Origin: Pecten maximus
Taxonomy: Eukaryota
DNA: 64,000 nt
Assembly: GCF_902652985.1 (NCBI RefSeq)
Contig: NC_047026.1
Coordinates: 13,082,001 to 13,146,000, forward strand
Direction of reading: 5' to 3'
This document shows positions 22,806-63,996 of the stretch, one piece after another (the first letter of the stretch is position 1; every line of letters begins with the position of its first letter). The notes under the pieces were generated by a model, which saw only the letters and a list, made by a program, of their open reading frames with translations, made no database searches and was not told where the DNA came from. A program made the translations under genes and the position numbers.

Positions 22806-22844
22806 GTCCTGGTCCTAATGTTGGTCTGACGTTCCTTGTAAATC

Positions 22845-32367: not shown

Positions 32368-34682
32368 CTTTCTGTGGACAAAAATAAAATAGGTTCATAT
32401 TGCATTCGATGCAAAAGAGATTTAAGACACAAACAGTTTAACAATGCTTTATGTACAATTGATAATGTACGAATTTTGATATATTTATACCAAAACGCAC
32501 CTGTTATCAACAGGTGCAGTGGTCATCGGTTGGATGTGTCCGGACTTAATGCACCCAGCGGTCAGTTGAAGTCCTTTATACCCGGCTTTACCCAATATTG
32601 TGCCCGTTAGTGACCACATGGTTTTCAATACTGATCATAACCTGTTTCTATGACATGATGTGTAATAGGGTGGACAATGACTTGACCCCAGAGGGTCAAC
32701 GTGTCCGGAGTTGTCCAAGTAGTTGTATCTACCAGTGTTACACTGGTCAGCGGTGATACTAAAGATCCTAGATTAATGACTGACCAGACATGGACATGAC
32801 AGGTCAGAGACCAAATTAGGTCACAAAGATATATTTATGGACTTCGAGGAAATTGTTTTACAAGACATTTACAAAGATGACCATCCAATAGGAAACAGTC
32901 TGGGAACTGTCTGGCATAATCTTAAATCATGCATATTGATAAGAAATGATGACGAGAAATAAATATTCAATTAAACTAATGAATATTCAAATTATAAATA
33001 TTAATGATGAATATGTTAATTAGATAAATAAATGAATATTTTCATCAGGAATATTGATACATGCTTGCTCAATAAGTGTTAGAATTACCACCTTCAAACG
33101 ATATATCCGAACGCTGTAATATTTCTGCATATTATTACTCGCATCAATTTGAAATTTTTACTATTATGAACACTGTCATATACAAAAAAACATGTAGTTA
33201 TAATTTTTGGCAGATCTGATTGAAAACTAACTTACTTGACTTTCACGATTAAATTGTTACTGAACTAAATGTTCACAATTGCTTCGTATAAAGATAGATT
33301 TAAGAAACATTTGTAGATGTCACATTTAAAGACTTATTTTATCAATATTTTCACCAGACAAATTACTAGATTAGATGCCAAGAATCCATAGCTATTTAGA
33401 TTTGCGAACTACAGTATCTTTTTTAAGATTAATTTTATGTTTATATAAATGCATTATCCGACTTTTTTTTATATATATTTTAAATCTAAATATTTAAAAT
33501 TTCCAAAATTGTTACAAATTAAGATCATGATAATCTAGAAATTCAAAAAAAAAAAAAAATTAACAAAACAAAAAAATCAGCAGGTACTTAAAAGTAGCTA
33601 TTGTAACATGCAATCTTAGAACTTGGTGTTTCAGATAAGAAATTGTCATTATATATAGCGCTCACCTTGGTAAAACAATATCTTTGTTTTTCATATGCTG
33701 CAGTAGTATAAATTTCCAATGTGTTGACTCTGAGAAAGCTCAATGTAGAATGATAATGTTCTAGCATCCCCACCACCTTATATATACTTAATAAGACAGC
33801 CCCAAGAGTATCTCTCCTTAATTTCAATTAAATGTTAAAATCACATTTAATTATTAATTTGACATATCGAGGGTCTACTCCTCTAACCAAACATTTACCT
33901 GTGTAATTCTCACCTGGACGGGGTATGTATCACCTCTACCTATTGTTTCCCGAGGAAGATACAAGTGTAGATAGCGGAAAGGCTATTGTTTTAGGCGCTA
34001 ATTTCGCAGCTCCCTGATATAAGTCTCACGTTACGTGAGAACTGTCGCATGGCCGAACGGGGGGCCTCCCACGGGGTATTTACACTCGTTCTCTACCAAT
34101 CATTGATAATTTCCCCCAGAGCACCTCGGTGCTATATAATTGATTTAATTAATTGGGATTTATCATTGATTAAATTTAGTAATAACTGATCGCCTATTCG
34201 CGTCTATCACAATAGCCATTATACGTGTTTGTTTTACCTACGAGCACATTTATGTTTGAATCATATCACATTAATGTATGTAATAAGTGTAAAAATCACA
34301 TTATCAATATATAATTTGACACTAATGGTTGCTGGTGTTACCAACAACCGAATATAGATAGAAAAAATCAAATTAGTTTGGGGGACAAGTATAACAGGTA
34401 CCCAGCAAATATTAGTGTCAAACTAATTAAAGCAGACTTCAATTCGCTTTCCTATAATGATATCTACATGTAAATGAAAGGCCTTTCCTAACTTCTGAAA
34501 TACATGTACATTGTACATGTAGTATATCGTCATCAATCAAAAAAGGTAAGTCAAAAACTTCAAATAAAAAATAGATGAAAAATATCTAATAAGTCACGAA
34601 AAAAATTACCAATACATGGATATGCTTGAATATAAACATGGAATTATTGAATAATACAACGTTTAACGACATAACTTTCATT

Positions 34683-35356: not shown

Positions 35357-35404
35357 TAATTTTATAACCATTCCAGAATAATTGATTTTAACTAATATTA
35401 ATCA

Positions 35405-41769: not shown

Positions 41770-41905
41770 GATGGGACTTACTGTGCGAGGAAACTGGAAT
41801 ACACAGAGAAACCCCATGTTATCTGACAGGTTACCCCCATACCGTTTCACATCCGATCGAACCCCGACGGTCTAGGTGGAAGGCAAGTGTGTTACCACTG
41901 TGGCA
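41770..41905 (-). mobile_element. Degenerate tRNA-derived SINE
   Basis: Minus strand CAGTGGTAACACACTTGCC...GGGGTTCGATC and core GGTTTCTCTGTGTATTCCAGTTTCCTC. Confidence 0.6.
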
Positions 41906-42735
41906 TGCGATCACCTTGTACTTACAAGATGAAAGCTGGTATTTTATATTGAATATTAAAAAATGTGAAATAAAATCAAATTGAATACTGTTTACAGTTT
42001 TGGATGTAGTTAAATTGATCATGTCACTGAGATTTGCTGTGTTTCGTTTTTCTGTCAAGGTCGACGTCGCCAAAGTCATATTGACTTGCGTGTATAAGAA
42101 TGCACTACATTTATTTCATTTTAATGATTCCGAGGACGGAAATGTAGACTTACATGATTTAATATGAACATATACTACAAAAATATCTAAGTCACTAAAT
42201 ATGATTTTATCTAAATGTCTATTGATTCGATATTATTTTAATCTTTGTATATGGAGCGGACATTGATAAGTTGCAATAATTTGTATCCGATCCTTTTATT
42301 CCTTTTAATATTAACGCAATAAAATTGATTTAAATCTACATAAAATGTACCACGATTTACAATACAGCGGCTTACCACTACATGAGTATATGTTAGATAT
42401 TTCTGAGCACCCTTCAATATTTTCTCGCTAAAATTAAAAATTCCCTTATTTAATTTTTTTTCATATATCGCCTGACCAACAAAAGTTGTCCGCTCATAGA
42501 CGCACTTTACCAAGCTATAATCACATAACTACATGAGATTCAAGATACCCTACGCAAGATTTTAGGTACCCATCTATTTCAAAATGTTCTATAACTGCTT
42601 ACTAATGGATATTTTAAAAGCTAATACTTGTTATTCTGTGGAATAAATTTCGCGTCAATCAATTTACAAACTCACAACCCGTTGTCTATGAGTTAGGAGT
42701 TACATACGCTCTCATACTAGCAAATAAATTCTTGC

Positions 42736-43430
42736 ACTTACCGCATAAACCTCTGTCCTTCCAATGTAAAGCACTAACTACGAAATGCATGGGTCCTAAC
42801 CCTGTCAGAAAGGTACGTGTTTCCGACCTAACGCGAGCTTTGGGTATTCCGGTGTGTACACACCTTTGGTTTCGGATAAACAAGCTGTCGGAAATGTGAC
42901 GAAGTTTATCCAAACACCTCGTCTCCTCCTGTCCCCTCCCGTTTGTCGGTTAAAACTACAAAAGGGGAATAGCCCGGTAGTTACAACACGGACACCGGTG
43001 GGCAGCCATTGAAGCCAGTATGTGGCCCCGCCACCTCCAAGCGCTCCCCCTCCACCGGGAGATAATCTGTGAGCGCGTGGGGGATGATTAGTCTGTGATT
43101 ACAAACACCTCGGGTATAAACACCGTTGAACGGGTGAGAGGAGAGGCGGGGCTTACGAAATCGATCGTCGGTGCCAGGGACGGCAGGTTGTCGGCTTGGA
43201 CCAGATTGGACAAAAAAGACTGACACAGGGTATTACTGTCGTCACAGGAAATAATGCTTTAAAAATCTGACGTAAAGTACGATTATAATTATTACAGGAC
43301 ATACTGTTCATATTAATAACGTATTCATGGCCATTAAAATCTGCAAATGTCGCGCCAGTCAGACGGGGGATCAGATTCTTAATGTCAACGCGGAATATTA
43401 TGATGACAGCGATTTAAAGTGCTTTTAGAA
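42736..43430 (-). promoter_or_regulatory. Promoter/first-exon module A1
   Basis: Homologous to A2-A4 (GC boxes, GAGATAATCTGTGAGCGCGTGGGGGATGATTAG core). Donor CG|GTAAGT at 42741. Confidence 0.6.
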
Positions 43431-44854: not shown

Positions 44855-46830
44855 TTGATTTTGATTTAAACATATTTTATTTGTCATTTACAATTTGTTA
44901 CAAAGGGATTGGGCACAAGTTTTCCAACTTATATTAAGCCCTCTCCCGATACAATTTTACATTGAGAAAAAATTCACATGATGGTAGTTTTATTTACATA
45001 TTTACAATCTAATTTTATAAGAAATAAAGAGAAAGAGAGAGAGAGACAGAAGGGGAGGGAGACGGAGAGAAAGGGGAAGAGAGGGGGAGTTGGAGGGGGG
45101 AAGGAAGAGAGAGACAGAAAGAGATTTTATAAGATATTGATACAAATAATCTTATATATATGGGATATACATGTATATCTAAATACTTCAAAAAGACAAA
45201 TAGTTTTGTGGTAGACCTAAGCGGACTCGGGCAACAATCACTTTGGTACACAATTCGACTTTCCTTTCGTTCAAACTTGTCTAATGTCTATGATAATCCA
45301 TGCCAGTGGTGTCTTCCTCCTTTTCTTTTCTGGTCCTTCATTTATAACATTTCACACACACCCGAATGTCACCCGAGTCCGCAAAGACAAAAATACAATG
45401 TACATTAATTTCCAATTAAGATATTTTTAAAATCTATTTGTATTTTTAATAAATAGTTGGGTTGATTGGCATATAGTTACATTTTCTTGATGAGAAAGTT
45501 CATTTTTTCCGAATAGCAGAAGTTGCAGGTCTAGTGGGATGAAATAATTTAGATCACGAAACAGTTGCAAACGCTGAACAGAGTAATTATTACATTCAAA
45601 AAAGAAATGATATGCATCTTCAACAGGGTGTCCACATTGGCAGTGTTTAAAATTAATCAAATTTGCATGAAATAAATCGTTGTTAAGAGTACTAGATCTG
45701 TTTCTTAATCTTGCATGCATAATGTTATGTTTTCTGTCACCAATTTGATAGTAGAAGGGAACTTTTGTGTCTGTAAAATTTTGAAGAGAATGTTTAAAGG
45801 CCGAGTACGTAACACTTTGTCGGATTTCGTTATCTAAATGATTCCATAGTTGGATAGTAGAGGGAAAGAAAGATGAATTAGTAAGATGTAAACGGTAATT
45901 TGGTAACGAGTAATTATTGGCATTTCTAAGGTTATATTGAGAATTTTCTGATACTAATGGTGGAAGAAGTGATGTTAGGTAATTTGGAGATAATTTATGT
46001 TTAATTTTATAAAAAAGCTGCAATTTTCGCCTAGAGCGTCTAATAGCAAGAGGTTCTAAACCACTTTCAGAATATAATGACTGTATACTAGTGTAAGATG
46101 GTAATCCCGTAATCACACGTGCAGCTTCTAGTTGAAGTTTTTCTAGTTTATCTGAGTCACCGAGACTACACCCATCCCATACCTCACAACAATATTCTAA
46201 TAATGGTATAATATACGAAGTATATATTCTATATAAAGTGTGGCGATTTAATATATATTTAAGCTTACGCAAAACACTTATCTGTTTCGATACCTTTTTA
46301 CAAATACCATCAATATGACTGGTCCATTTACAATTTCCGTCCAATATAACTCCCAAGTGCCTATGATTTTCTACGAAGTTCACACTAACATTATCAAATT
46401 TAATATCAATTTCTAAGGACGCACTGGTTTCAACAAATTTTGTTGAGTTAAGGATGTATATCTTTTAGCTTTTAATTTTAGGTATCAGATGAAAATCCAC
46501 GTAATAGGTTTTAGAAATATCATTAATGTGACATATCAATTTGAAATAAGATAACAGGATCTTGACATGGATCCATTTAATAATATATTTTATATGTCAA
46601 GCCCCTTTGAATTAGATCCTAGTGTCTGTCATACACTTAAATATATTTCTATTAAATAATCTGTCTAATTATTGTGATATTCACAAATCACGCCGTAGCT
46701 GTTTCTATATCAGAGTAAGAAAAGTAAAGTCAGTTTAGAGGCCACGAAAACAAGATTACCAGTTATATTATAGAAAAATAGGAGTCAAAAGACTGAGCCT
46801 TGTGGTATACCAGCATCAGTAGAGTTAATT
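44855..46830 (-). mobile_element. LINE (CR1/L2-clade-like) 3' portion; open ORF2 C-terminal segment 45427-46383
   Basis: ORF has post-RT motifs (HRHLGVILD, LEYCCEVW, LEKLQLEAARVITG) and a C-terminal CQCG...EDAYHFFFEC zinc knuckle. A decayed GIPQGS RT motif lies at ~46790-46812, and an AATAAA plus (AATC)n tail at ~44855-44882. Confidence 0.85.
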
Positions 46831-47043
46831 TGAGTGAGTTTTTAGTGAAAGTAAATTTCCTATTTTGTCACTGGTGTAGATGAATGCACTGGTTGCATTT
46901 ATACATACAATGTATTCCACAATAAGACAAAATATGCTAAAAATATAAACTTCAATCTACAGGTGACACTGAAATATAAGAAATACCAGTCCCGGGGAAA
47001 TATTTAATTAAAATGTAATAAATTCTCAGGCCAACCATCATTT

Positions 47044-47618
47044 AGCGTGGGAATCGAAGATTCTCACAAAGCAGGTGTTTTTCCTACTAATTCCATGTGT
47101 AAATTTGAGGGAGTTTTTAGTGAAAGTAAACGTCCTATTTTGTTACTGGTGATAAGGTGTTACGGATATTGCACGAACATATATCTTTATTAGGGGTCAG
47201 TACCGGGTGTCGGATATCGGGGGCCAGGTGAGAGAAACACCTTTCAGGACCCATTAGGGGCTGAGTACTCATGACAACATTGTCAGGTAAACTCGGATAT
47301 GGGCAGGTATATCTCTCAGTATGACCACTAATTAACACGGATTTTTACCTGTAATCAACCTCTACACCTCTGATGGGGCACTCATGGTGGAAACATATAG
47401 GGCAAGTCAACGTTAGTGTTTATCATCGACACTCAATATCATAGCTGTATCAATGGTTGAAATATTTGGTGACAATAACGAACCGATAATTTACTAAAAT
47501 TTATTTATTTTCTTCTTTCAAACCTTTTAGACTTTCCATTGCGAAAACTCAGAAAAAATTTTTTTATAGACTTCAGTTTGACAAACTTAGTAACTAAGAG
47601 TTTTGCTTCCCTGGATTA
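47044..47618. promoter_or_regulatory. Conserved element B1 (CSL site + E-box + 81-bp invariant core)
   Basis: AGCGTGGGAA at 47044; core 47182-47338 nearly identical to B2-B4. Confidence 0.6.
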
Positions 47619-48114
47619 ATTTTCAGCAATGAAAAACATGTAACTTATGCATACATTTCGAGTACAAAAATCAGAGTCCCACTGCGAAAGAAGGATTAAG
47701 CTAATTGGCTGAGTTACAATAATGCTAATGAGTTACTCATAACGAGATTATCGAGCACTCTTTGACGTCTTAATCTCCCCACAATCAGTGTCTTCAATAT
47801 CTACAGAGTTGTCGTTCCTGTCAATTGGTAAAATTTGATTTTCGACCGTTTTTCTGCACTAAATTTGATATAATCTTTCAACATTATTTTCTGTATTTAT
47901 CTTGGATAAATCTTATATTAAAAGTCTTCAATTTTGAAGAACCTCGTGTGTTTTATAAGCCGCAATTAAATGTTAATTTCTCGTGAATTTATTTATTTTT
48001 AATGGGGAGCATTTGGCATGTAATAATGACAGACTTATCCTAAAAAAACAACAACAACAACAAATAAAATAAATTTAAAAAAAAATTAAAAGCACACACA
48101 AATAGATTTACCCA

Positions 48115-48690
48115 CAAATTAAAATCTAACTCACCAAGTCTCTAGTCTCTGTTAGTTTCGCACTGTTCGAAAGCAAATCCCAACTGGCCAGTTCTACCAA
48201 AAACACGGGACTACCAAACCCAGCCACGTGTTGTTACTGTGTATATACAACCTGTCGGAATATTGACGAAATGGTCCAAACCTTCACCTCTGTCGGATAA
48301 ACTACAAAGTTTAAACACAGGTGGGCATTCCTTGAAGTCAGTATGTGGCCCCGCCCCCTCCACGCACTCCTCCTCCGTGGAAAGATAATCTGTGAGCGCG
48401 TGGGGGGTGATTAGTTTGTGATTACAACACCCCAGGGAGATATACACTGTCGGACAGGTGAGAGATAGGGGCGGGGTTTACGGGATGGCGTCATAGACGG
48501 ATATTGCGCCAGATTTGATAGAAAGACTTACACAGGGTTGTAAGGACGACACAGGGGATGGTACGATTATATCAAGGGATTATATCCATTTTAATATCAT
48601 ATTTGCATAAGTCAACAGAATATATGGCCATTAGGATTGGCAAGTGTCGCACCAGTAAAACAGGGGATCAAATTCCCAATTTCAACGAAA
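48115..48690 (-). promoter_or_regulatory. Promoter/first-exon module A2
   Basis: CCCCGCCCC and GGGGCGGGG boxes; donor TG|GTGAGT at 48134. Confidence 0.6.
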
Positions 48691-49399
48691 ACTTTCAGAT
48701 ATTTCTTCCATACTATAATTAAGATTGACTCAAATTCAAGAGTTCCATCATTTACCTTCCCTTTGTGTTACCGTTATATATAACGTAGCTTTATCTACAT
48801 GTTAACCAAAGGAGTTGGGTGCTGTCAGTCACAAACTTTCAAAAATCAGATATTCTTTGATTTTCTATTGATATCTAATATTTAACCAGCCAGAAAACCC
48901 TATCTCAAACCAATGTTTAGAATTCAAAAAATGGTAAGGATCAGATAAATCGCTTTCCCGTAAGAACGAGATCAAATTGGAAAAATGAGCTTGATTTAAC
49001 ATAAATTCAATATTTCTAAAAAAAAAATAGAAAAAAAATCAATAAAAAAAATCTTAATTAAACTTAATTCAAAGGGACATAACTCCTATAGCAATGAAAG
49101 TGCAAGGAAATACATAAATGGACAGAGGACTGGAAACTCATGCCAAGTCCATGCGTACTAGACAAAATAATGTTTGTTTTATAATAACGGGCATTCAAAG
49201 TCAAAAGTTATCAAGCTAACTTTACGGATGACATGAATGAGAATGCCATCAATGGATACATGAGAAGGACACATTCGGTTGAGCTTGTAAAATTTACTCG
49301 CAAGGATTTGGCTTTAAAAGAAAGACAACTTCTGTCGAAATCTAATTGGCTTTTGATTAATTAACTATGCATTTCTTACTCATTTTTTCTATTTTTTTT

Positions 49400-49965
49400 T
49401 TTCATTGTTTCGTTTGAATTTATTCTTTATCATTAAGCTATCAGAAATTGACGTTTCCAAATTTGTAGAGGCGAATCGAATATCACACTCTCCAAACAGT
49501 TTCACAGTTAATTTTCTTGCATCTGATGGCATTCCGTTGACTTTATTAGAAAACTCATCTCATCATATCAAAAGTTCTGCGGTTAGTGCCGTTTGAGAAA
49601 TATATAATCAGTGTAAAGAATCAATAAGAAAAACGCGCCTAGAGTTAAACTCGAATCAATATTCGAAACTCAATAAATTTGTAATAATGTGTTGCATCCA
49701 ATTGCACGAGAAAACTACATGTAATTATAAGTACATCCGGAATAAGTCACGCTCCAGTTTCGTCCGATTTTCCTAATTTAAGGAAATTATTTGACTACTT
49801 CTGATTGTAATTCTACATCGGACTCAGACAATTAAGATAACTAAGTGTCGTAAAAAGGTGAGAGAAAAACATACGCTCAATACCAATGTGTTATCTTAGA
49901 AAAGTTAGGGTCAGAATACTGATCCTTGGGTTATACCACCATGAGTATGAATTAATTTTAGAGGG
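49400..49965 (-). mobile_element. Highly decayed LINE RT remnant
   Basis: Minus strand GGTATAACCCAAGGATCAGTATTC (GxxQGSV-like) at ~49913-49937 and a CHQM-like segment near 49520. Same relative position as the RT remnant before B1. Confidence 0.4.
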
Positions 49966-50021
49966 TTCACATTGAATATAACTTGCTGACTGCGATCCTT
50001 CAAATCCATTGAAAATGTACA

Positions 50022-50232
50022 GTTTGGTTTGTTTGGTTTGTTTTTGTTTAACGTCCTATTAACAGCCAGGGTCACTTAAGGACGTGTCAGGTTTTGGAGG
50101 TGGAGGAAAGCCGGAGTACCCGGAGAAAAACCACCGGCCTACGGTCAGTACCTGGCAACTGCCCCACGTAGGTTTCGAACTCGCAACCTAGTGGTGGAGG
50201 GCTAGTGTTAAAGTGTCGGGACACCTTAACCA
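50022..50232 (-). mobile_element. Near full-length tRNA-derived SINE
   Basis: B box GAGTTCGAAACC, central TTTCTCCGGGTACTCCGGCTTTCCTCCAC domain and (CAAAC)n tail. Confidence 0.85.
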
Positions 50233-50416
50233 AGGTACAGGTACAGAAAGAAACACTACTTTATTTATAATGTAAAAAAGAGTATTTCTATTTCCATAGA
50301 TACATATTCTGTTTAAAATCTACAGTCATCTATCTTCAGGCTCAACAGAAACCTGAGAATTACTTAAATGTAACTATATATATATAATACTGTATCTATG
50401 ACCCCTTCAGAAACCT

Positions 50417-50702
50417 AGCGTGGGAAACCAAGATTCTTACAAACCAGATGTTTTCCTACTAATTCCCTATGTAAAGGCAGATCAGGCGTTGGGACGGATA
50501 TTGCACGTACATATACATTGTATCTTTATTAGGGGTCAGTACCGGGTGTCGGATTTCAGGGGCCAGGTGAGAGAAACACCTTTCAGGACCCATTAGGGGC
50601 TGAGTACTCATGACAACATTGTCAGGTAAACTCGGATATAGACAGGTATATCTCTCAGTATGACCACTAATTAACACTGAATTATACCCATAATTAATCT
50701 CT
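50417..50702. promoter_or_regulatory. Conserved element B2
   Basis: AGCGTGGGAA at 50417; core 50521-50678. Confidence 0.6.
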
Positions 50703-50950
50703 GTACATAGGATTATATTCCAAGATCGGTTTGGTCAAGTTCAACTTTTTCATTTTCACTCAGCCACACTTTGTGTGGAACAAGAGGTCACATTTATATT
50801 TATAAAATGCAGTGATTCACATATTCTTAAACTTTATCTTTGTACATATATGGTAAATACAGGATCCAAGTTATCCTATTTAACATGTTCAGATTCTTTA
50901 TTTCCTTGTGTTTTTCAACACATCAGAGAGACATTACAAAACAATACAAT

Positions 50951-51111
50951 GTAATATATTATGACACAATTCACATTTACAAAAGTACATGTCCATTACA
51001 CTTAATATACACATACATGTATAACATACAATGTACATGTAATATATTATGACACAATTCACATTTACAAAAGTACATGTCCATTACGCTTAATATACAC
51101 ATACATGTATA
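50951..51111 (+). repeat. Two-copy tandem duplication (~88-bp period)
   Basis: GTAATATATTATGACACAATTCACATTTACAAAAGTACATGTCCATTAC... repeated. Confidence 0.85.
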
Positions 51112-52094
51112 TGTATACGTACACTTTAGTATTACCATATATTATAGAAATGAACATAACGTCATCATGGCAGTACACAATAGTTCATGAACGTTAAAAA
51201 AATAGACTGGCATATAGTAAATTAAACAATTAAGTGATGTTATTACGTGGTTTTGTCGCTAAATAAAGGAATTTTCCTAGCTTACTCAATACAGAAACAT
51301 ATTGAACACTTAATAATTGTATCAACTTATAAACACTTGGTCTTCTATAATATTATGGCTTAATGTATGTAATTCGAATATTGTTATAAAAATTACATTT
51401 GAGAATAAAATGGTATTCATCCTCAATATCATTACCTTGACATAATGTACATATTCTTTGCTCTCTGCTGATTTCTGTATCTTGCTTGTTCTATATTGAG
51501 ATTGTGAGAGCTTAATCTAGATCTAGCTATTTGTTTTTTTATACTGGTCATCTATAGGCTTACACAAGTAGAACTGTAAAGAGAATTTATCAATAACATG
51601 TTGATATATTTTACCTTTAGAAATATTACTAATATTTGATAGAAGCTCCTCTTGATAAACATCGTAAAATCTTTGTTTAATCACATTAAAAGCTATTTTC
51701 TCGCTACATTCAGAATTCCATCAATAATTTATGTTAACACGGATATATGGCCCGATCAGTAAATCACCTGAGTTATACTAATGATAATGAGTTTCTCAGA
51801 CAAGATTACAGAGTACACCTTGACGTTTTAATCTCCACATCAATTAATATTCATGATACATAACTATCTATCTGAGTTGTCGTTCCTGTCAATCGGCAAA
51901 ACTTACTTGTTAAACACCTATACTTATGTTTATCTTAAATACACCTAAACTTTAAAGTATTAAAGAACCCGTATTAATTTGAAAGATCAGGCCGAAATCG
52001 TAAATAAATCTTAATTAAAACGTTTTGCATGAATATAATTTTTTAGTTTTACCATTTCTCTATATAGATTTAAAAATATAAACAAAATTTAAGA

Positions 52095-52745
52095 AGTGTT
52101 AAAATCTAACTCACCACGTTTGTAAAGATGTCTCTTCAAAATCGAATATCAGAATGATCAGGTTCCACCGAGCACGCGCGACTTCAAAACAAAGTCACGT
52201 GTTATTCCGGTGTTTATAGAGATACACGTGAATATACAACCTGTCGAAATTTTGACGAAATTGTCCAAACCCTCCCGTTTGTCGGTCAAATCTACAAAGG
52301 GGCACTGGTCCGGTAGATACAACACGGGTACAGGTGGACACAGGTGGGCAGTCATTGAAGCCAGCAGGAGACCCCGCCCCCTCCACGCGCGGGAGATAAT
52401 CTGTGAGCGCGTGGGGGATGATTAGTTTGTGATTACAAACACCTCAGGTATATACACCGTTAAACAGGTGAGAGAGAGGGGCGGGGCTTACGAAATCGTC
52501 CATCGGTGCCAGCGACGACGTGTTGTCGGCGTGGACCGAATTGGACGAAAAGACGCACAGGAAATGATTCTTTTAAATTCTTGCGTAAATAAACTTTCTA
52601 ATGTAAATGATAAGGGTTTATTAACGAGAGACTTATCCTGGCCCTTAAATCTAGGATAGTCGCGCCTGTCAGATTTGGGATCAGATTCCCAATGTCAACA
52701 AGCAATTGTCTTTACTGTGATAATAGTGATTTCAGGCGCTTTAAG
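52095..52745 (-). promoter_or_regulatory. Promoter/first-exon module A3
   Basis: Minus-strand TATAAA at 52213-52218, CACGTG boxes, GC boxes at ~52372 and ~52478, donor TG|GTGAGT at 52114. Confidence 0.65.
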
Positions 52746-54689
52746 CATGAATGTCAATTCTAGGACGAAAATACTATTCTTTATCTAATAGCTTGGTTCC
52801 AATCTCTTAGCAGTGATTTATTCTATATGTTACAGCTTATTTGCCCCTCATATTTGTCAAAGTGACTCTCGATTGCTTTACTTTAAAAGGAAACTTTCAG
52901 GAAGAATAGTTTTTTTTCTTTTCTTTACCCAATGATATCATCACGGACTTATTATATATATATCGGTGACATCATTAACCAAAATTGCAAAATTTAATGA
53001 AGCAATAAATCTGATTGAAACATTTACTAACTTGTCAATCATATGCAAATAACTTAACGCACTATCAAAAAATGAAATAGGTTCAGTTTTCATTGGATAT
53101 ACATATATATATATAAACATCTTTAAAAAAGCTGAACAAGAAATCTCATCGTAATCAGATCGTGTCATACCGTATTGTATGACATTTGCTTCGACATTTT
53201 ATTTACTTTTCTCGTCTTTCTTTTTATTTCTGTCTTACAATCATGTGTCGTTTGACAAACAATTAACAGTACGTTTTAATAGTCAGAATATAACACATTT
53301 ACACAAAACAGAAACCTTCAAATGGGAAAAGCTCCATCGAGTCCTTTCTTCGAAATAGCTGTATCAATACTTCGATTGTCAAAACGCCAATAGTCATTGT
53401 AGTTTACGATCGATATCAAAATTATAAACAAACAGCTAAGGACAAAAAGAAGTCTACATACGGATTAAAAGGATGAAATTAAACACGAGGAGCTTTATGA
53501 GAAAAGTCAAATTCTAGATTACACCCTGTCGCTATTTGGCATAGGCACAAGACGAGCCTGCGCATTCATGGAGTTTGAGAAAGATCAATACAGTAATTTT
53601 GTGAGATGAAGGGTGATTTTAACACTCCACTCTTCGGCTTGTGGTAAGTTCATCAGTATTTTCTAACACAGGGATTTGGCATGGTTCCCAGCCCTGTCAT
53701 ACATATACTAATAACGAAAGGGACATAACTCAAGCGAACTCAGTACATCTACTCATAGTAATAAGTATTGTCAATTTAACTGCATCAGTGGAGTCCCGAA
53801 AATTTCGATTAAGAATTATAGAATTTTCAAGACATAGAAGAGGGGTTGATGATTTATACACAGTGATTTTTATATTGCGTCTTCCCTTTCCGATTCAGAT
53901 TTTGTAATAGTGACAGATTTTTATACAAATAACTGAATAAAAAGTATGCGCAGATATCACAGGTACTCCACACAACTTCCCAATCCATTGACTGCCCCTA
54001 TTTGTACAATGATTTATTTGATTCATACACTGTATAGATAAATACATGGATGGTGAGTGGGAAATTTGTTCCAAGTCCCTGTGGTGTAGATGCACAGTGC
54101 AGAGTTTGGTATATTTCACATAAGTCTGAAGAATTTTCAGATCGGTTTAATTCACAAATCTTTGGAACATTTTCGCACAGTTGGGTTGCAGAAACAAATT
54201 TATTAAAAAGAAAATTAACAAATGTGGTATAGGACGTGCATATTTACTTTCTAATTGTAATTATCTAGTATAAATATATTCATTTCAAATATTGGACATT
54301 AATGCATTTGGATCACGGTTACATCGACGCTTTTCTTCACACCTCGAATGACACAGCATTATGATAAGGAGCAAACATTTAGATGCATGATTCCATGAGG
54401 CTACCATAAACAGCACAGAACTCGCGTCTTACTCACATAAGATTATGAGCATCATTTCACACGAGGGGTCTATCGTTAAGATAAACTTTATAGCTTTCAT
54501 GTCCATATGCATAAAAAATCTGAGAACATTTTAAAATGTATCAATATCATTGTGTGTTGTGATTAGCCTATTGGTGTTTGTTACCGCCAATTTGTTGAGG
54601 GTCATAAGAGAAAATATATCAATATAATTCATTGTTGCTACGAGCAAGAAACCGTGATTTGTGAAAACTCTTGAGACCTTTAGTTCTAC

Positions 54690-54985
54690 AGCGTGGGAAT
54701 CTAAAGTTTTCACAAAGCAGATGTTTTTCTTACTAATTCCCACTGTAAAGTGACAGATATGGTGTTTGTACGGATATTGTAAGTTTATATCAATCTTTAT
54801 TAGGGTCCAGTGCCGGGTGTCGGATATCAGGGGCCAGGTGAGAGAAACACCTTTCAGGACCCATTAGGGGCTGAGTACTCATGACAACATTGTCAGGTAA
54901 ACTCGGATATAGACATATATACCTCTCTCTCATTATGACCGCTAATTAACATTGATTTACACCTGTAATTAACCTTTACACCTGT
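54690..54985. promoter_or_regulatory. Conserved element B3
   Basis: AGCGTGGGAA at 54690; core ~54793-54951. Confidence 0.6.
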
Positions 54986-57019
54986 AGTCTGAGTTTTCAC
55001 GATGAGTTGAGACGATGTCAATATTCTATATCTCTCTTCCCAAGTTGTGACAGTTTTGTTAATTGAGGAATCAGACCGTGGAAACACCTACTGCTGTATA
55101 TGAACATCTTAGTTTATTATATTTTTAGTTACCTAGCAAGTTACCGATTTTACCGCCTACATGGTTCCGGCCAGTGTATTGTTTCGTTTTTGACCGACTG
55201 TCTCCTTATAAAACATTATCATTTTTATATAGGGATGAACTGCGTTCACGTTAATATGAACACAGTACGTTGGATACAGACGGATTCTTTCCAAGATTTA
55301 GGGTTGATGACGATGATCAAATACGTTGATAAACAGCTCCTCTATTAGCATCAAGCGTGTAACCTTGTAACTTATTCATTGTTATTTAATCTACGTTAAT
55401 TTACATCTTTAAAAATATAATTAAAAAGTCATCGAACATCATGTTATATCTATGAACAAATTTGAAAAAAAAACCGAAACACACAAAAAACTTTTTAAAA
55501 CTTCTAATAATTGAAAATACACGAAAGAAATGCTGTTAAGACCCATATAGCTTGACGGTTATGTTATCTAAAATGAATTTTGTGGCATTTATAGAAGAAA
55601 AAATGATAACAAAAGACATCTAGAGAAAGCCTAACATTTTCTCTTTGATTGTAGTAATTATATAGACCAGGGAATTTAAAGTTGTACCGTAATCTGAATG
55701 ATTTACACCACTATACCTGTAGGTATTACTATACATAGAAGTAATGACTTATATAATATAGAAGATAACGTAACAATTCACTAATTGACTCAGCAATCCA
55801 TTATGGACTCAAACAGATTTTGACCCAACCCCCTCCTCTCTCCCGCTGTCTCAAAAATCACTTAATTATGCCATCTTGTTAATATATAAACATGTATGTT
55901 GTAAAATTATATAGGGCTTAGTATAAGTTGGCTGACTTGTACCCAGTTTTCTTGTATATACAAAGATGAAAAGTAAAATATGTTTAAATCAAACGGAAAA
56001 GTCAACTGTAAACAAAAGTTAAATCAAATGATGACGCATATATTTTTGGTGAAATCGTAAATCTAAATTGGAATTTATCATCAAATGTTTATTCTCACAT
56101 TAATGTTTAACAGTACACAGCCAGCCATAAGTCCCTAGTATCTTTACGGAAAATATTTTGAAATGCAGAAAATCTTATTTAATAGTTGAATATCGTAATT
56201 TATGTGTGATAAAAGAAATATTGTTTATGCCTTTTTGAATATCTTGGGAAAATATGTCCCTCCTATGTCTACCCTGGAAGCTCAAGAAGATTGGTAACTT
56301 CGTCTACTTCTACCATTTAGCGACCTCCTTCAACATCGCGAAGATTATGCCGTGTATGTGTGTGGCATGGAATGAAAGGAATGGTGTTTAATATTGGTGA
56401 GATGCATTAGCTGATTTAAATGAAGAAATAGAGTCTTAAGAATTTGCAATTATCACTGACGAAATAATAAACTTAAAGCAAATTCAAATTTGATTTGTTA
56501 TGCGCTTACAATATACCAACAAATTCATAAGTATGTTTATTTTTATAGCAGTACGAATGGTCTGGAATGGAGACATATGTAGATATGGATACATAGCCTT
56601 ACAACTTAATCACCTGAGTTATACTAATGATAATGAGTTACTCAGACAAGATTACAGAGTACACCTTAACGTCTTATGATATCACCGGACAATCAGTGTG
56701 TTATATCTGTACAGAGTTATCGGTCCTGTCAAACGACGGCATATAAGACTTTAACGAACTGTGACTGGACGTTTGGGGTTTCGCACAACTGTCGTTTTAA
56801 GGCATCAAACACAATACAAACTTCAGTTTAACAAACGTAGACCAACTTTTAAAGAACGCGTAGATCTAGTTGAATATTTACCGCGGCTTTTTTTTCCGTA
56901 ACAGGATATATAATTTGCATATCAAATTCTTATTTATGTTGAAAATGGCAATGTAGACAATTTAAAATATTTTCAGGGATGCAAGATGTCCATTTGAAAA
57001 TATTAACACAGAACTGAAA

Positions 57020-57570
57020 TTTAACTCAGACTCACCACGTCTAAATGATCCGCAGTTTCGTTCCTTCCTCTTCAAAATCAAATACCATCTGATCGCAAGC
57101 TAACAAACACACGTGACTATCAAATACAGTCACGTGTTATTCTGGTGTTTATAGAGGTACACGTGAATATACAACCTGTCGAGATGTTGACGAAATTGTC
57201 CAAACCCTCCCGTTTGTCGGTCAAAATCTACAAAGGGGCACTGGTCCGGTAGATACAACACGGGTACAGGTGGACACAGGTGGGCAGTCATTGAAGCCAG
57301 CAGGAGACCCCGCCCCCTCCACGCTCTCCTCTTCCGCGGGGAGATTAATCCGTGAGCGCGTGGGGGATGATTAGTCTGTGATTACAACCATAGGCACTGT
57401 GATTACAACACCACAGGTAGATACACACCGCTAAACAGGTGACGGAGAGGGGCGGGGCTAAGGGATTGGTCATCAAATGACGGACGGCAGGTTGACGGCT
57501 TGGACGAACAGACTGACAACTTTCTTTTCAACTTTCTTTATTCAGGGTGTTAATGTTAAATGTCGACACA
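57020..57570 (-). promoter_or_regulatory. Promoter/first-exon module A4
   Basis: Minus-strand TATAAA at 57148-57153, GC boxes, donor TG|GTGAGT at 57035. Confidence 0.65.
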
Positions 57571-58037
57571 GGATACTGATATATATGCCGACCTGAATAT
57601 CGGTTATTAATATTATCCTTTATAAAAACATAAATAGTTAAAATCCACAATATATCGTAACTTACGAACGACAAGAGTCGCGACAATATGAATAAGCGAG
57701 AATATGAATAAGAACAGAATTCCGGTTAGTTGTACAGCCATTAGAAATGGGTTCAGGCTAGTTTTAGTACTTTAACACATCAAATGCATTTGTAACGAGA
57801 TTTCAACAAAGTTGGAAGCAATTCCATTATTGCTTAGACCGGACAGTAATTAACAGCAAATTGGTTATGTTATATTTAGGTTGAATCTACGCCAAAATGC
57901 AAGAAGTGTCAGATTTTACCTTTCATGAATGTACAAAAAATGTATATAAATCACCAAACTGAGTGTGAAATTATTGATTATAATATGCAAGTAAGTAGGT
58001 TTCACTAGTGGCGTTGAATGATTAGTAAATCAAAAAC

Positions 58038-58790
58038 ACAAGAGATCCCAGAGGGCTGTTGGTATCCACGATGATAACTTCAACTGTTACAATCTCAGAG
58101 ACCAATCCCCCTCCAGTCTCAATGTTTAACGTTCACGACTAGGGACTTCAGCTATACCGAGGTGGCCACCAGTCGGCCTTTTTATTTTCCTGGCCAGTAT
58201 CAATGTTGAATGAGTACAATTAGGTACCAAGGGAACCTTTGAGAAATATCCTTTCAGCACTTCCTAAGATAGCGATAACAATCTTCAAGTATCAAAATCC
58301 AAGATGGCCGTCATTCGGCCATGTTGTTTTCCTGATCAGTCTAAAAATTGAAGAGGCAAAATCTAGGGACTAAGGGTAACCAACACATTTGGCTTCAGAA
58401 ATATGCTGTTAACATTTCTCAAGAAACTTCCAACACCTAAAACACAATAAAGCCGCCAACATGTCAGATGTTTTAATGAATTCAAGTTCAGACCGATAGG
58501 AAACTTCACATAATGTTGAGAAATATAATTTCAGTGTTTTTCAGAGAAACAGCCTTAACAAACACTAAGGGTCAATGTCCATGATGACCGCCTGTCAGCA
58601 TTTTGTTTTGTTTTTGTTTGTTTTTTGTTTGTTTTTTTCGATCAGTCGCAAAACTTAAAGGGCCACAATTAGGGATCAAATGGGAGAAGGAATTTAGAAT
58701 TTAAGATACATCCGTTCGGTACTTCTCAAGGCAAAGTAATATACACCAGGTACTGTTTAGGAGCGAGCTTCAGACCACGGACAATGGCTG
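58038..58790. mobile_element. Degenerate Helentron-like element with CAAGATGGCCG subrepeats
   Basis: Starts ACAAGAGATCCCAGAGGG. Diverged internal repeats contain CAAGATGGCCGTCATTCGGCCATGTTG. Confidence 0.45.
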
Positions 58791-58945
58791 TTGTGAAAGA
58801 TGTGATGAAGGGGAAATGTACTTACAAATATATATATACATTATGTATATGTCATGTTTTTAGTGGTAGGAAAAAAGATACGTCTGAAGAAATTTTATTT
58901 ATTGTCAATATGAAGCATCTTTCAGCCTAGTACATTCAGAATATA

Positions 58946-59596
58946 AGCGTGGGAATGCAACGTTCTTACAAAGCAGATGTTTTTCCTATTAATTCCTAGT
59001 GTAAACGGAAGATACTGGGTGTTTGTACGGATATTGTACATATATCTTTATTAGGGGTCTGTACCGGGTGTCGGATATCAGGGGCCAGGTGAGAGAAACA
59101 CCTTTCAGGACCCATTAGGGGCTGAGTACTCATGACAACATTGTCAGGTAAACTCGGATATATATATAGACAGGTATATCTCTCAGTATGACCACTAATT
59201 AACACTGATTCTCGCCTCTAATTAACACTGGTTTACACCTGTAATTAACCTTTACACCTCTGATTGGGGCACTCATTGTGGAAACATACAGGGTCAAGTC
59301 AATGTTTGCGTTTATCATCGACGCTCAATAATATCTTTATCGATAGTTGAGACTTTACCAAATTCAATTATGTCCTTCTAGCAAACTTTATAGACTTTCA
59401 ATTGCGCAAATTCATTTTTAAGCCTCAGAAAAGGTTTATTTATAGACATCAGTTTGACAAACTTACTTGAGTAACTACATAAGAAGAGGGTTTTTTCCCT
59501 GGATTACTCGGTAACCTCGGATATAGACAGGTTTATCTCCTACTCTCGGTATGATCACTAATTAACACTAGAAACTTACACCCATAATTAATCTCT
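58946..59596. promoter_or_regulatory. Conserved element B4 plus partial fifth copy (59512-59596)
   Basis: AGCGTGGGAA at 58946; core 59043-59205. Homology to the B1 flank runs to ~59505, then the 3' end of the core is repeated. Confidence 0.6.
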
Positions 59597-61889
59597 AATC
59601 TAGTAAGTGGTCATTCGCAAGGGATTGGTTAAGTGAAAATATTTTATTTCCTTTCCCACTTTTGACATTTTTTTGTTAACACATGATCCTCATGGGGAAA
59701 GACTTGCGACTAGTAGGCTACCGGAATCATATCTATAACATCAGTACTATTCATATTGAGATTCTACTGCGTTTACGATGGTATGAACGCTATGGGCTAT
59801 ATACGTTTTATGTAGTATATTAGCGTTCATGACGTTATCAAATATATTTGCAATGATTTACGGCCATTTTAAGGAATCTATAGCTACCAGGACCATTATT
59901 TTTGTCACATTCCCGTTCTGTCAAAAGGTTTGCACGCACACTGATGCACAGACGATAACAAAATCTAAAGGTTAAGCCCTATCCTATGCTTGAAATTAAA
60001 AAATACTGGAAAGTGTTAATTTACTGCAAATTCTTCTTTAAATAATGACCTCTCTCTTTATCTCTCTCTTTATGGAGGTAATGTTAACAAGGCGACGAAA
60101 ATGACGAGTGCCCGCAGATAAACACTGTTATTAGTAAATATACTTGGTGGAGTTGTATTAAGTTTTCATTGAATTATGATAAAATGAAATTTTCCCTAAA
60201 TATTTGCAAATGCACATCCCAATCAACAACTGGTATTACGTCATATGAGTCAGATTTTGTTTTCAAACGAACTTAATCGTAAGTGCTATACTTAAAATGT
60301 CAAATGTACGACGAAACTCCGCGACTCACCATATATATATTTTTTTTAAATGCGTTTCAGCACGGATAATAAAATTATATAAGTTTGAATAATTTTTGGT
60401 GATAATAAGACTGCATTTGAATCAGGAATATAATTTTATTGGTGTGTCATTTTAATAGATACGTTTTGTACATCCACTTATTCAGCTTGCATTCAATCTT
60501 AATTTAGTTTCGTCTTAAGACCAATCACATACTTCATCTTGACCAGTAACGCCACCTTCTGCGTCATATCCGGGGCAAAAAAAAAAATTATACGGCTATG
60601 CCGAAAAATGCATGTTTCAGGTGAACACATTCAGCTCATTTATGTCACAGATATTGCACAAAATAATCATGGCATGTCCGCCTTCATACAAGCACGATGG
60701 ACCAACAGGGAGACTCGTCTCTGAGGCCGATTTGAGTGTAGGGACATATCCTCGACGGAACTATGTACTGCGCCTGTACAGCAGCTGTCTATAGAGAATG
60801 GACATTGTGGCAGTTTGTATGTTATGATTAAAACACGCATCAAAAATTCATGAAGTTGTTGGAACAATATGAAATGATATTTATTAGTTTCATTTCAAAA
60901 GCCGCTATTGCGGTGCCGTTTTACTATTTATTCCCATTTAGTGATATCACTTAGTCGTTTAGTTATCGCTAAATGGGAATACAAAGGGAAACGTAGAAAG
61001 TTTCTCTCCTCGCAGTGATTTTATCAATTAGTGTTACATAGATATGATTGTGCATTTTCGTTAATTAATCTATTTTTCATTACTTGTACTGTACGGTACG
61101 AAATCCTGACAACTTTCTTTTAGGGGATTTTCACTAAAAATGTGCGTTAAACTAGGAAGTTAATATAGTTATATTTTAAGTCGCCAATTAAATAATATAA
61201 CTGTTAAAATTACTTAACTTTTTAGACAAAAAGAGATGATTGATTAAGCCATTAGGCCTATACACTATATATGTAGAGTTATATATGCTATAGCATCCTC
61301 AAAGGGAAATGAAATGTGAGAGTTATCCCCCCTAGGATGGTATTGAGCATTATGATATAAAAAGATAGGGAACGAGTTCGATCAACAGGAATTCATTTCA
61401 TGAGGTCCTGCATGTTTAAAAGGATCTCTTACGAGTTCCCAAAAAGTTACCCATAGGATCGTCTGGGCGGTAAAATGGTTAATTCGGGACATCTGGGGAC
61501 ATTGGAGCGATCTGATATTGGGCGAAGAGAAGGTTCTCCCCAAATATATTGGGACATTGAGACTATTGTCTTGTTGAAATAAAAATATGTAACGTTATAT
61601 GTAAAAATGGGACATTGTATGTTTGTAGTGTAATGTGGGACAATGTTGATATTGGGCCGAAACGTCTGTAATTAATTGTCAACTAACTCGCCACAAAACT
61701 GCAACCAATCAAAAACGTTCTCTTATGCGTGTTCGGAAAATTATTTGTTTACATCCGGTATGCCGGTGGACCCAGAACAAGAAAAGTTATGTCAGTTAGA
61801 TTTTTAACCATATTTACTTCTGTATTTATCTATTCGAATTTTTAAAGTTATACATACATATTTTCATATACAATATATAAAATTCAGGG

Positions 61890-63996
61890 ATGACCTCCTA
61901 AAAAACGAAAACTTCCTGAATCATTTCAGGTAGGGAGCAATAAATTCTTACTTGGATGTAAAATCTATATTTTGAAAGCAAGTATTGAAAAGATGAGGTT
62001 GCAGATATTTACCTCTCAGCTTCAAAAATATGGCGGCATTTGCCATGAGCAATTAGAATCTGATACAACTCATTTAATTGTCGACGATAAAATGGATGCC
62101 GAGAGAATGTGCAGAATACTGAAAATGGACAAACCTCCAGAAAATATTGAAATATTGAAAACAAGTTGGTTAAGTTCATGTTTCAAATCTAAGGATATGG
62201 TGCCAACTAAAGGATTTGAATTAGATTTGTCAATTGTTGAAAAGAGGGATGTATTGGAGGAGAGTGACACAAAAATACCCAAAGATAAAGATGCTGCTAA
62301 TGATCCACCTACTGTAGATGGCGAAGTTAAGCCCGCAAAGGTTGGTGTCATGTTTCGTGCCTATAAGAAGCCAAAGGTTGAATCCGAAGGTCAATTTGAT
62401 GACCCAGACAGTGACTATATGGCAAGTGATAATGAAGAGGAAGATCAGATAGCTGGAGTGGACAGTGATCATACTTCAGCAAGCACAACTCCACAGACAT
62501 CTCCATGTAAAACCATACAGGTGAGTACAATGTCTCCACGAAAGCTTACGACTAAAGTTGGTTTACCTTGACCTGGGCGGCCAGAAGATGAATATGTAAA
62601 AGGAGAATAAGGGTGATCGCTTGATTGCATTGGCAGGAATTAAAGCCAAACACAGTCCATGAGCTATAGCCCGAATTATTCTGACATTTTATCAACTTTA
62701 TTTATATCAGTCTGGCATCAGTCAATGCGAGATCAATATTAAATAGGTCAATAAAACATTGGTCTGGTATGAGGTACAGACACCTCACTTCAGTAAGGGG
62801 TTTAACTCCTACTAATGAGCAGATGTCTTATAGTTTGCTGTCCCCATACTTGTGGTTCCCCCTTGTGGCTTTCCTCTAGAGAGAATATTCATACTCTGCC
62901 TACACTGCTCTCAGGACGACCATCTGTCAGAAATAATCTGTCCTTCGTCCAGAGCTACGTTACCGCAGCTAGCTTTCCTCTAACTTGGACAGGTACAAAT
63001 GTATCAATGTATTCTTGAGTGGATTATGCATTAATACCCCTGTAAGTTGTGTTCCATTGCATGTGCATGCTTATATATAGGTATACTAGTTATAGCTGAC
63101 ATGATAATTGTTTAATGTGATAGACAACGGACCCAGTAATCCCCTTGAGGAGTGTATGTGGTATTGTGGTACTGTCGAAACTTCATATGTGTGGCGTGTA
63201 CATAACTATTAAATATACTGTCAATATCACTTGACTGATGGAGCATTCTTAGCTCATAGAGCCCTTGATTATCACGCTGGAGACCCAAGTTGTATTCTTG
63301 TTTAGGTCAGTAATGTTTGTGTCTTCTAAGCCAAGAACATCATTTGCAAAATTTTGATGAGTCCCATGAATGCTTAGAGATAAAGTTTGAGTGAGTCCAT
63401 AGGAAAATCATGAGACCATGACTTATATACCAGGATGTGATAGGGGCTGGGGTAGTTATTTACAACTACCTAGTAGGGAGACTACCAAGCATTACTAAAA
63501 AAGGACCAGTATCACAATGGTATCACAATGAAATATTCATCACCAAATATAAATAATTGATTTGTTTACTTTTTTAATGGATGCATTATACTTCAGCTCT
63601 AAATTCATTTTGTTATTATTTATGTTTCAGACTTCTAGTTGGGTTTGTGCGCAGTCTTCCAAAAACACTCGTCCGAATTTAAACGAACATATCACAGACA
63701 AACTGGAGGTATGACAAACATGTAATTAAAAAAAAAAACCAAAAAACCTGGAAATAAATGATATGAAGTCATCTTAAGCATATATATATATAATTTTTTT
63801 TTTGTATAACTGACTTTTTTTTTTAAGTACATCACTTTATTTACCAAGTTGAGGTTTAAATTAAAATTTTCGTTCTTTAATATTTCAGGAAATGGTGAAG
63901 ACCTATGAGAGCACCAGTGATAAGTGGAGAGCGTACGGCTACCAGAAAGCCATTCAAGCTCTACGCAGATTACCTAAACCGATATCCTCATGGCAG
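61890..63996 (+). CDS. POLL: DNA polymerase lambda (X family), 5' part; continues beyond the window; start codon uncertain
   Basis: BRCT exon ending at 62520 (FTSQLQKYGG...TTHLIVD...ILKTSWLSSC). Exon 63631-63708 gives WVCAQSS...NEHITDKLE. Exon 63889-63996 gives DKWRAYGYQKAIQALR (8-kDa lyase domain). Confidence 0.92.

What the first reader, a model, noticed from the sequence alone, without database searches (positions are those of the whole stretch)
47182..59205. 81-bp block identical in all four B copies while the flanks have diverged
GGGGCCAGGTGAGAGAAACACCTTTCAGGACCCATTAGGGGCTGAGTACTCATGACAACATTGTCAGGTAAACTCGGATAT is unchanged in the cores at ~47182-47338, 50521-50678, 54793-54951 and 59043-59205. 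B1 and B2 differ at only about 4 of 157 core positions, yet sequence a few hundred bp away cannot be aligned. This implies strong purifying selection or gene conversion on a non-coding element. The core is packed with CAGGTG/CAGGTA sites (Snail/Scratch/ZEB class), TTTATTA, TAATTA and a TGAGTACTCA palindrome, consistent with a dense enhancer (inference).
Basis: partly seen in the sequence, partly recalled or inferred. Interest (0 to 1): 0.7.

Follow-up and report, generated by a model that had tools for sequence, protein, structure and literature searches.

The report
Fourfold duplicated cdc25 regulatory cassette
In a scallop, a non-coding cassette upstream of the single-copy-at-this-site mitosis gene cdc25 is repeated four times, and the identical 81-base block is the best-kept part of one module, likely an enhancer held the same by selection plus copying between the repeats.

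Summary
In detail: the 81-bp block is exact at 47220, 50559, 54830 and 59081, occurs nowhere else in the searched genome, and contigs from two other animals break where the copies share words, so it is no assembly artefact. It is not a free-standing element. It is the centre of module B in a four-fold tandem cassette (B, promoter-like A with a splice donor facing cdc25, and C) 10-27 kb upstream of cdc25. Alignable spacer DNA is only 62-72% identical, the 157-bp core 93-99%. Gene conversion is shown at this locus: A2 and A3 share a 101-bp identical tract while differing 20% next to it. Selection is suggested by short invariant islands in B's diverged arm, one a Su(H)-type site beside an E-box. 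The core's diversity (4%) also fits fast neutral conversion, so the two causes cannot be separated for the 81 bp. Best reading (0.6): duplicated cdc25 enhancer-promoter cassette, like the tandem first exons of Drosophila hydra. No RNA family, coding or transposon signal. Function and cross-species conservation are untested. Interest 0.35.

The parts
47220..47300 (.). 81-bp block, copy B1
   Evidence: exact match
50559..50639 (.). 81-bp block, copy B2
   Evidence: exact match
54830..54910 (.). 81-bp block, copy B3
   Evidence: exact match
59081..59161 (.). 81-bp block, copy B4
   Evidence: exact match
47043..47363 (.). Module B1 (left arm with CGTGGGAA at 47046 and E-box at 47072, 157-bp core 47182-47338); likely enhancer
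50416..50702 (.). Module B2 (CGTGGGAA at 50419)
54690..54986 (.). Module B3 (CGTGGGAA at 54692)
58946..59243 (.). Module B4 (CGTGGGAA at 58948; 6-bp AT expansion next to the block)
59510..59597 (+). Partial extra copy of the right end of B
   Evidence: nhmmer E 1e-13
42741..43400 (-). Module A0: promoter-like, GC-rich; 3' part remodelled, own donor GCG|GTAAGT at 42741; predicted distal first exon of cdc25
48134..48690 (-). Module A1: promoter-like, ends in donor TG|GTGAGT at 48134
52114..52700 (-). Module A2: promoter-like with TATAAA, donor at 52114; conversion tract 52288-52388 identical to A3
57035..57505 (-). Module A3: promoter-like with TATAAA, donor at 57035; conversion tract 57224-57324 identical to A2
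47709..47836 (.). Module C1 (about 300 bp downstream of the A1 donor on the minus strand)
51768..51904 (.). Module C2
56614..56732 (.). Module C3; no C found next to A0
46757..46857 (.). Decayed relic, likely of a LINE, left of B1; its counterpart 49881-49984 left of B2 is 72% identical and serves as a neutral yardstick
   Evidence: LINE label is my reading of the sequence
28431..32390 (-). cdc25 coding exons common to three annotated isoforms
32503..32619 (-). cdc25 isoform X1 first coding exon (proximal start)
33665..33694 (-). cdc25 isoform X2 first coding exon (second proximal start)
61894..62520 (+). BRCT-domain exon of the head-to-head neighbour (DNA polymerase lambda-like; name recalled)

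Best explanation
The 81-bp block is the centre of a non-coding module (B) that is repeated four times as part of a B-A-C cassette upstream of cdc25, and it is likely an enhancer whose copies stay identical through purifying selection plus gene conversion. Shown: four tandem units in one orientation, one locus only, deep divergence of the spacers, and a conversion-type tract between A2 and A3. Inferred: one ancestral unit (enhancer B about 1.5-2 kb upstream of promoter and non-coding first exon A, with C just inside the first intron) was multiplied by unequal crossing-over; unselected DNA decayed and filled with transposons; factor-binding islands were kept by selection; once the 157-bp core stayed above about 95% identity it remained a substrate for conversion, which keeps resetting it. 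Inferred function: B takes Notch (Su(H)-type site) and bHLH/zinc-finger (E-box) input and drives the adjacent A promoters, whose exons would splice to the common cdc25 exon at 32390, giving stage- or tissue-timed mitotic entry.
For: Order A0 B1 C1 A1 B2 C2 A2 B3 C3 A3 B4; B-to-A gaps 1441, 1990, 1726 and 3643 bp. B and A each match only this locus of G000 (a 20-mer with up to 2 mismatches gave 4 exact hits here and 2 elsewhere against 3 for the control). Core 93-99% identical against 70-79% in the left arm and 72% in the shared relic. A2/A3: 129 of 131 identical in the tract, 140 of 174 beside it, 31 consecutive polymorphic columns shared, p=0.0002. Two 10-bp invariant islands in B's left arm (40 of 98 columns variable), p=0.0045, too short to be conversion tracts (inference); one is AGCGTGGGAA, and CGTGGGAA occurs only 4 times in the window and 0 times in 20 other loci of 194 kb; an E-box (CAGGTG or CAGATG) follows about 25 bp on in all four. 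Each B has 3-5 CAGGT[AG]; 0 of 140 300-bp windows in 1-42000 have 3. All four A end in GT[AG]AGT on the cdc25 strand; A modules are 45-50% GC with CpG o/e 0.74-1.16 against 35% and 0.69 for the window. cdc25 already has two annotated proximal first exons and a third isoform that starts at the common exon; the Mizuhopecten orthologue lists at least 4 RefSeq accessions for one identical protein. Drosophila string/cdc25 has modular enhancers bound by Su(H) and bHLH proteins (PMC11100713, PMC4829154; passages).
Against: No binding, chromatin or reporter test could be run, and motif names are recalled, not from a motif library. Core diversity among copies (Watterson 4.2% per site) lies in the range of four times the allelic divergence (0.85-1.9%), which very fast neutral conversion alone would give; an 81-bp hole then has probability about 0.01-0.06 before correcting for picking the longest run. 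Invariant runs in A are not longer than shuffles give (p=0.19). B's invariant words are not enriched at the two proximal cdc25 starts (p 0.14-0.66) or at A0/A3, only nominally at A1, A2 and C2. A0, the unit nearest cdc25, lacks the TATA-like word and has no C. B4 is nearer the BRCT gene (2.7 kb) than cdc25, so the target is not certain. No A, B or C homologue lies within about 9 kb upstream of 14 of the 15 other cdc25-like loci.
Confidence: 0.6

Rival explanations
1. Neutral concerted evolution: the core has no special function in four copies and is simply a patch that never dropped below the identity needed for gene conversion.
For: Conversion is active here (A2/A3 101-bp tract; B2/B4 shared run p=0.004 uncorrected). 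Core diversity 4.2% fits four times allelic divergence. Pairwise identical runs extend beyond the block (85, 89, 99 bp).
Against: All four copies, 3-12 kb apart, stay matched while flanks reached about 28% divergence; 10-bp invariant islands in the diverged arm (p=0.0045) call for selection; the 81-bp hole is still unlikely (0.001-0.02 within the core).
Confidence: 0.18
2. B is itself transcribed: a short plus-strand first exon (three CAG|GT[AG] donor-like words) or a small structured RNA, divergent from promoter A.
For: CAG|GTGAGA, CAG|GTAAAC and CAG|GTATAT on the plus strand and AATAAA on the minus strand; folding z of -2.1 (81 nt, plus) and -2.5 (146 nt, both strands).
Against: No Rfam match over B at E<=1. 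Consensus folds have a positive covariation term; 0 of 44 (plus) and 1 of 47 (minus) pairs are compensated, and most variable pairs break. The longest simple hairpin is about 36 nt, short for a pre-miRNA. The third donor word is lost in B3.
Confidence: 0.12
3. The 157-bp core is an old miniature inverted-repeat transposon, now single-locus, duplicated with the cassette.
For: A 10-of-11 inverted match joins the two ends of the core (47189-47199 with 47322-47332); 0.7% of 837 control windows reach this.
Against: No dispersed copies; depth over B bins is at single-copy level in X1, X4, X5 while true repeats nearby reach thousands; homology continues past the supposed ends. An origin of this kind would not explain the identity.
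Confidence: 0.05
4. B is a protein-coding exon.
For: One minus-strand frame is open through the block in all four copies.
Against: All synonymous positions of 27 codons are also invariant; B3 has a 4-bp insertion; stops follow at different places; no Pfam match, no homologue of 37-121 aa; no annotated cdc25 isoform maps there.
Confidence: 0.03
5. Assembly or polishing artefact that homogenised similar repeats.
For: Near-identical repeats can be homogenised by short-read polishing (general knowledge).
Against: Contig ends predicted from shared 31-mers (47309, 54842, 54886, 59179) match contigs built from raw runs: X4 starts at 47309, 54886 and 59176, X5 at 54886, X1 ends at 54842; X4 and X5 are other samples and studies.
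Confidence: 0.02

Closest known systems
Drosophila hydra, nine tandem alternative first exons (PMC1904467; abstract and passages read)
   Same: Recurrent tandem duplication of the 5' end of one gene; copies carry promoter elements and a donor; homogenisation by conversion or unequal crossing-over was considered there.
   Different: hydra is a young testis gene with young copies, and use of four copies was shown by 5' RACE. Here the gene is an ancient cell-cycle regulator, the unit is 3-4 kb with a separate upstream module, spacers are about 30% diverged or unalignable, and use is not shown.
Drosophila string/cdc25 modular enhancer region (PMC11100713, PMC4829154; passages read)
   Same: Large upstream region of cdc25; Su(H) and bHLH input, matching the Su(H)-type site and E-boxes in B.
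   Different: string's enhancers are described as distinct modules; here the modules are four homologous copies. No sequence homology was tested or is claimed.
Concerted evolution of duplicated non-coding DNA (duplicated mitochondrial control regions, rDNA spacer promoters; recalled, apart from a search listing of PMC7720580)
   Same: Functional cores stay identical by conversion while flanks drift.
   Different: Here the homogenised patches are only 80-160 bp islands in a low-copy nuclear array beside a single protein-coding gene.

Membership tests
Tandemly duplicated promoters / alternative first exons (hydra type) | Homologous tandem copies in one orientation upstream of one coding region | tested here: met
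Tandemly duplicated promoters / alternative first exons (hydra type) | Each copy ends in a 5' splice donor facing the gene | tested here: met
   GT[AG]AGT at 42741, 48134, 52114, 57035 on the minus strand; 21 such words occur on that strand in 32000-60500, so this is modest evidence
Tandemly duplicated promoters / alternative first exons (hydra type) | Core-promoter elements in each copy | tested here: inconclusive
   TATAAA in A2 and A3, TATATA in A1, none in A0; GC boxes in A1-A3
Tandemly duplicated promoters / alternative first exons (hydra type) | Transcripts start in several copies and splice to the common exon | not testable with these tools
   only contig-level runs were offered; see Tried and rejected
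Developmental enhancer (string-type, Su(H) + bHLH) | Non-coding, single-locus, near the target gene | tested here: met
Developmental enhancer (string-type, Su(H) + bHLH) | Short conserved factor-site islands among variable bases | tested here: met
   two 10-bp islands, p=0.0045; site names recalled
Developmental enhancer (string-type, Su(H) + bHLH) | Open chromatin, factor binding, reporter activity | not testable with these tools
   no such data reachable
Conserved non-coding element | Orthologous conservation in other species | not testable with these tools
   no relative's genome is held; two exact-pattern scans of metagenome contigs were blank
Gene-conversion tract | A run of otherwise polymorphic sites shared by one pair of copies, with sharp ends | tested here: met
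   A2/A3, 31 columns, p=0.0002; the 81-bp block has no polymorphic site and cannot be tested this way
MITE / dispersed transposon | Many unlinked genomic copies | tested here: not met
MITE / dispersed transposon | Terminal inverted repeats with target-site duplication | tested here: inconclusive
   10-of-11 inverted match, 0.7% of controls; homology runs past it
Structured non-coding RNA (miRNA, snoRNA, other Rfam) | Rfam match or covarying structure | tested here: not met
   only four close sequences, so power is low
Protein-coding exon | Frame-preserving, synonymous-biased change; homologues | tested here: not met

The most novel reading that the evidence does not exclude
Scallop cdc25 is amplified at the level of regulation: four working copies of one Notch/bHLH-responsive enhancer-promoter cassette feed a single coding region, the enhancer core being held base-for-base by selection on dose, while a related scallop appears to have duplicated the whole gene and the genome keeps about 15 further cdc25-like loci. 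This would be a natural system in which enhancer copy number sets the timing of mitosis in a spiralian, and in which selection and conversion on paralogous enhancers can be separated.
Probability: 0.2. Interest if true: 0.62.

Novelty: new member of a known kind. Interest (0 to 1): 0.35.

Why it matters
The four copies act as a built-in phylogenetic footprint: they point at the few hundred bases that likely control a rate-limiting mitotic gene in a mollusc, a group with few mapped enhancers, and name testable inputs (Su(H)-type site, E-boxes). The locus also shows side by side a pairwise conversion tract and a four-way invariant block, a clean case for asking how selection and conversion keep duplicated non-coding DNA alike. 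The architecture itself (tandem promoters or first exons, concerted evolution) is known.

Tried and rejected
Expression: no RNA holder was listed for 47000-52750; this blank is not used as evidence. Contigs of four runs guessed to be RNA (X7, X8, X11, X19; 4 of the 18 RNA or RNA-guess rows) laid on 32250-52249 gave no cover in the bins 42255-43588 and 48258-48924, no listed joint between an A exon and cdc25 (13 joints not shown), and two depth-2 X7 pieces at 47477-47693 and 47891-48034 that may be DNA; the cdc25 exon itself had depth 0-5, so the test had no power. Cross-species search: two exact patterns in metagenome contigs found nothing; no eukaryote relatives are held. Paralogues: profiles of A, B, C found nothing below E 0.6 in 20 fetched loci, 14 of them upstream of cdc25-like genes. 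Remnant cdc25 coding exons inside the array: none by tblastn, so loss of coding parts from whole-gene duplicates has no support. Shared motif vocabulary between B and the proximal starts: not significant. Rfam: one chance hit outside the array. Earlier findings of this scan: none. Literature: nine searches listed no paper on this array or on a cdc25 expansion in scallops; only open-licence papers are searched and only listings were seen except for five papers. PMC12780502 and PMC13219418 do not mention cdc25 in the main text; their supplements were not read and scallop ATAC peak tables there could bear on the enhancer claim. The SoxH motif ATTGT of PMC13219418 occurs once in the block but is too short to count.
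Full report
Observation. The 81-bp string is exact at 47220, 50559, 54830 and 59081 and cannot be extended in all four copies. In the 157-bp core B1/B2 differ by 4 substitutions, B2/B4 by 2 and a 6-bp gap, B3 from the others by 8-10 and a 4-bp insertion. Column shuffles never reached an 81-column invariant run in the whole B alignment (0 of 100000) and did so in 100 of 100000 within the core; treating adjacent changes as 8-10 events gives about 0.007-0.024. The block is real DNA in other animals: contig ends predicted from 31-mers shared between copies coincide with contigs assembled from raw runs of other samples and studies (X4 at 47309 and 54886, and 59176 against a predicted 59179; X5 at 54886), and all 30 bins of 42400-60400 are covered in X1, X4 and X5. 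X1 may be the source sample and is not counted as independent.

Context. Exons at 28431-32390 on the minus strand encode a cdc25 phosphatase matching proteins that the database names Pecten maximus M-phase inducer phosphatase (rhodanese domain). Two isoforms have first coding exons at 32503-32619 and 33665-33694; a third starts in the common exon, so its first exon is non-coding and its place unknown. A BRCT-domain gene faces the other way from about 61750 (polymerase lambda by my recall).

Anatomy. Self-comparison shows three repeated modules in the order A0 B1 C1 A1 B2 C2 A2 B3 C3 A3 B4, plus a partial B at 59510-59597. Read in the direction of cdc25 the unit is B, then A 1.4-3.6 kb on, then C 200-300 bp after A; C is missing from the unit nearest the gene. 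B and A each match only this locus of the 918-Mb genome (the search warns that counts are lower bounds, but read depth over B bins is at single-copy level). Only 16-35% of a unit aligns with another. C-A stretches align at 62-68%, B1/B4 flanks at 72%, and a decayed relic left of both B1 and B2 at 72%. Within B the left arm is 70-79% identical, the core 93-99%. So the duplications are old relative to allelic divergence, which is 152 differences in 7930 bp for 8 listed X4 contigs and 45 in 5278 bp for 8 listed X5 contigs (only the longest contigs were listed).

Why identical. Conversion is shown for A: A2 and A3 are identical over 101 bp (52288-52388, 57224-57324), 129 of 131 in the tract against 140 of 174 beside it, while other pairs are 74-83% alike in the same tract; 31 consecutive polymorphic columns are shared (p=0.0002; 6 pairs tested). 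The B block has no polymorphic site, so this test cannot be applied to it; B2/B4 show a weaker shared run (p=0.004 uncorrected). The core's diversity among copies (4.2% per site) falls within four times the allelic divergence, the level expected if four copies are freely exchanged, and under that ceiling an 81-bp identical stretch has probability about 0.01-0.06 (simple coalescent arithmetic, not corrected for choosing the longest run). Selection is suggested separately by two 10-bp invariant islands in the diverged left arm (p=0.0045), which are likely too short to be conversion tracts. I conclude that both act, and that the data here cannot divide the 81 bp between them.

Likely function. 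A is promoter-like: 45-50% GC, CpG o/e 0.74-1.16 against 35% and 0.69, GC boxes in A1-A3, TATAAA in A2 and A3, and a GT[AG]AGT donor on the cdc25 strand at the end of each copy; its invariant runs alone are not longer than chance (p=0.19). B is non-coding by every test. It carries an invariant CGTGGGAA, found four times in the window and never in 194 kb of other loci, which matches the Su(H)/CSL site as I recall it, followed by an E-box in all four copies, and 3-5 CAGGT[AG] words per copy where 0 of 140 control windows have 3 (tandem repeats in other loci do reach high counts). Drosophila string/cdc25 has modular enhancers bound by Su(H) and bHLH factors (PMC11100713 and PMC4829154, passages read). 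The inferred mechanism is an enhancer B driving the adjacent promoter A, whose non-coding exon splices to the common exon. Against: B's words are not enriched at the proximal starts, A0 is remodelled, B4 is closer to the BRCT gene, and no activity was measured.

Rivals. Neutral concerted evolution (0.18) is the main one. A plus-strand exon or small RNA (0.12) has donor-like words and mild folding (z -2.1 to -2.5) but no Rfam match and no covariation. A transposon relic (0.05) has a 10-of-11 terminal inverted match but no dispersed copies. Coding (0.03) and artefact (0.02) are poorly supported.

Comparison and novelty. It resembles Drosophila hydra, with nine tandem first exons of which four were shown to be used (PMC1904467, abstract and passages), and in likely inputs the string enhancer region. 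Membership in the hydra type is met for architecture and donors and untested for use. Nine literature searches listed nothing on this locus (open-licence papers only). The genome holds 15 further cdc25-like loci; 14 were checked and none has A, B or C within about 9 kb upstream. In Mizuhopecten several near-identical cdc25 proteins sit on contigs of the same length, which suggests whole-gene duplication or haplotype duplication there. Verdict: a real and well-defined duplicated regulatory cassette of a known kind; interest 0.35, higher if all four copies prove active and the core is conserved across scallops.

Noticed in passing
G000 C12 (1.86-1.87, 16.63-16.94, 25.69, 33.70-33.88, 34.60 Mb), C4 40.53 Mb, C1304: About 15 further cdc25-like loci with intron-exon structure, mostly in clusters on the window's own contig: a large cdc25 expansion, for which my searches listed no paper. 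Intactness and expression not checked.
   Followed up: partly
proteins P0002, P0006-P0009: Mizuhopecten has several 98-99% identical cdc25 proteins on a contig of one length and at least 4 RefSeq accessions for one identical protein, hinting at tandem genes and several 5' UTR variants.
   Followed up: no
window 61885-61900: An ATG lies one base out of frame just before the PPKKRK start of the BRCT-gene frame (61894-62571); possibly a 1-bp assembly error or a later start.
   Followed up: no
window 33890-34040 (minus): Promoter-like stretch upstream of the X2 first exon with a Su(H)-type word at 34034 and CAGGTG/CAGGTA words at 33916 and 33901, which also read as splice donors; not significantly alike to B in word content.
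   Followed up: partly
window 45427-46464 (minus): 345-codon open frame that looks like the C-terminal part of a LINE ORF2, multi-copy by read depth; no Pfam match. It lengthens the B1-A0 spacer.
   Followed up: partly
window 50031-50232: Very high-copy 201-bp SINE-like repeat just left of B2; further repeats at about 50800-51700 and 58240-58390.
   Followed up: no
window 22833-26176, 8359-9796, 40473-41619: Minisatellites of 58, 52 and 35 bp period; the 58-bp unit carries a TGTGAGAA word in nearly every copy.
   Followed up: no
window 46824-46876 and 47099-47151: A 53-bp piece at 91% identity is duplicated into the left arm of B1 only, a recent local insertion between the Su(H)-type site and the core.
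   Followed up: no
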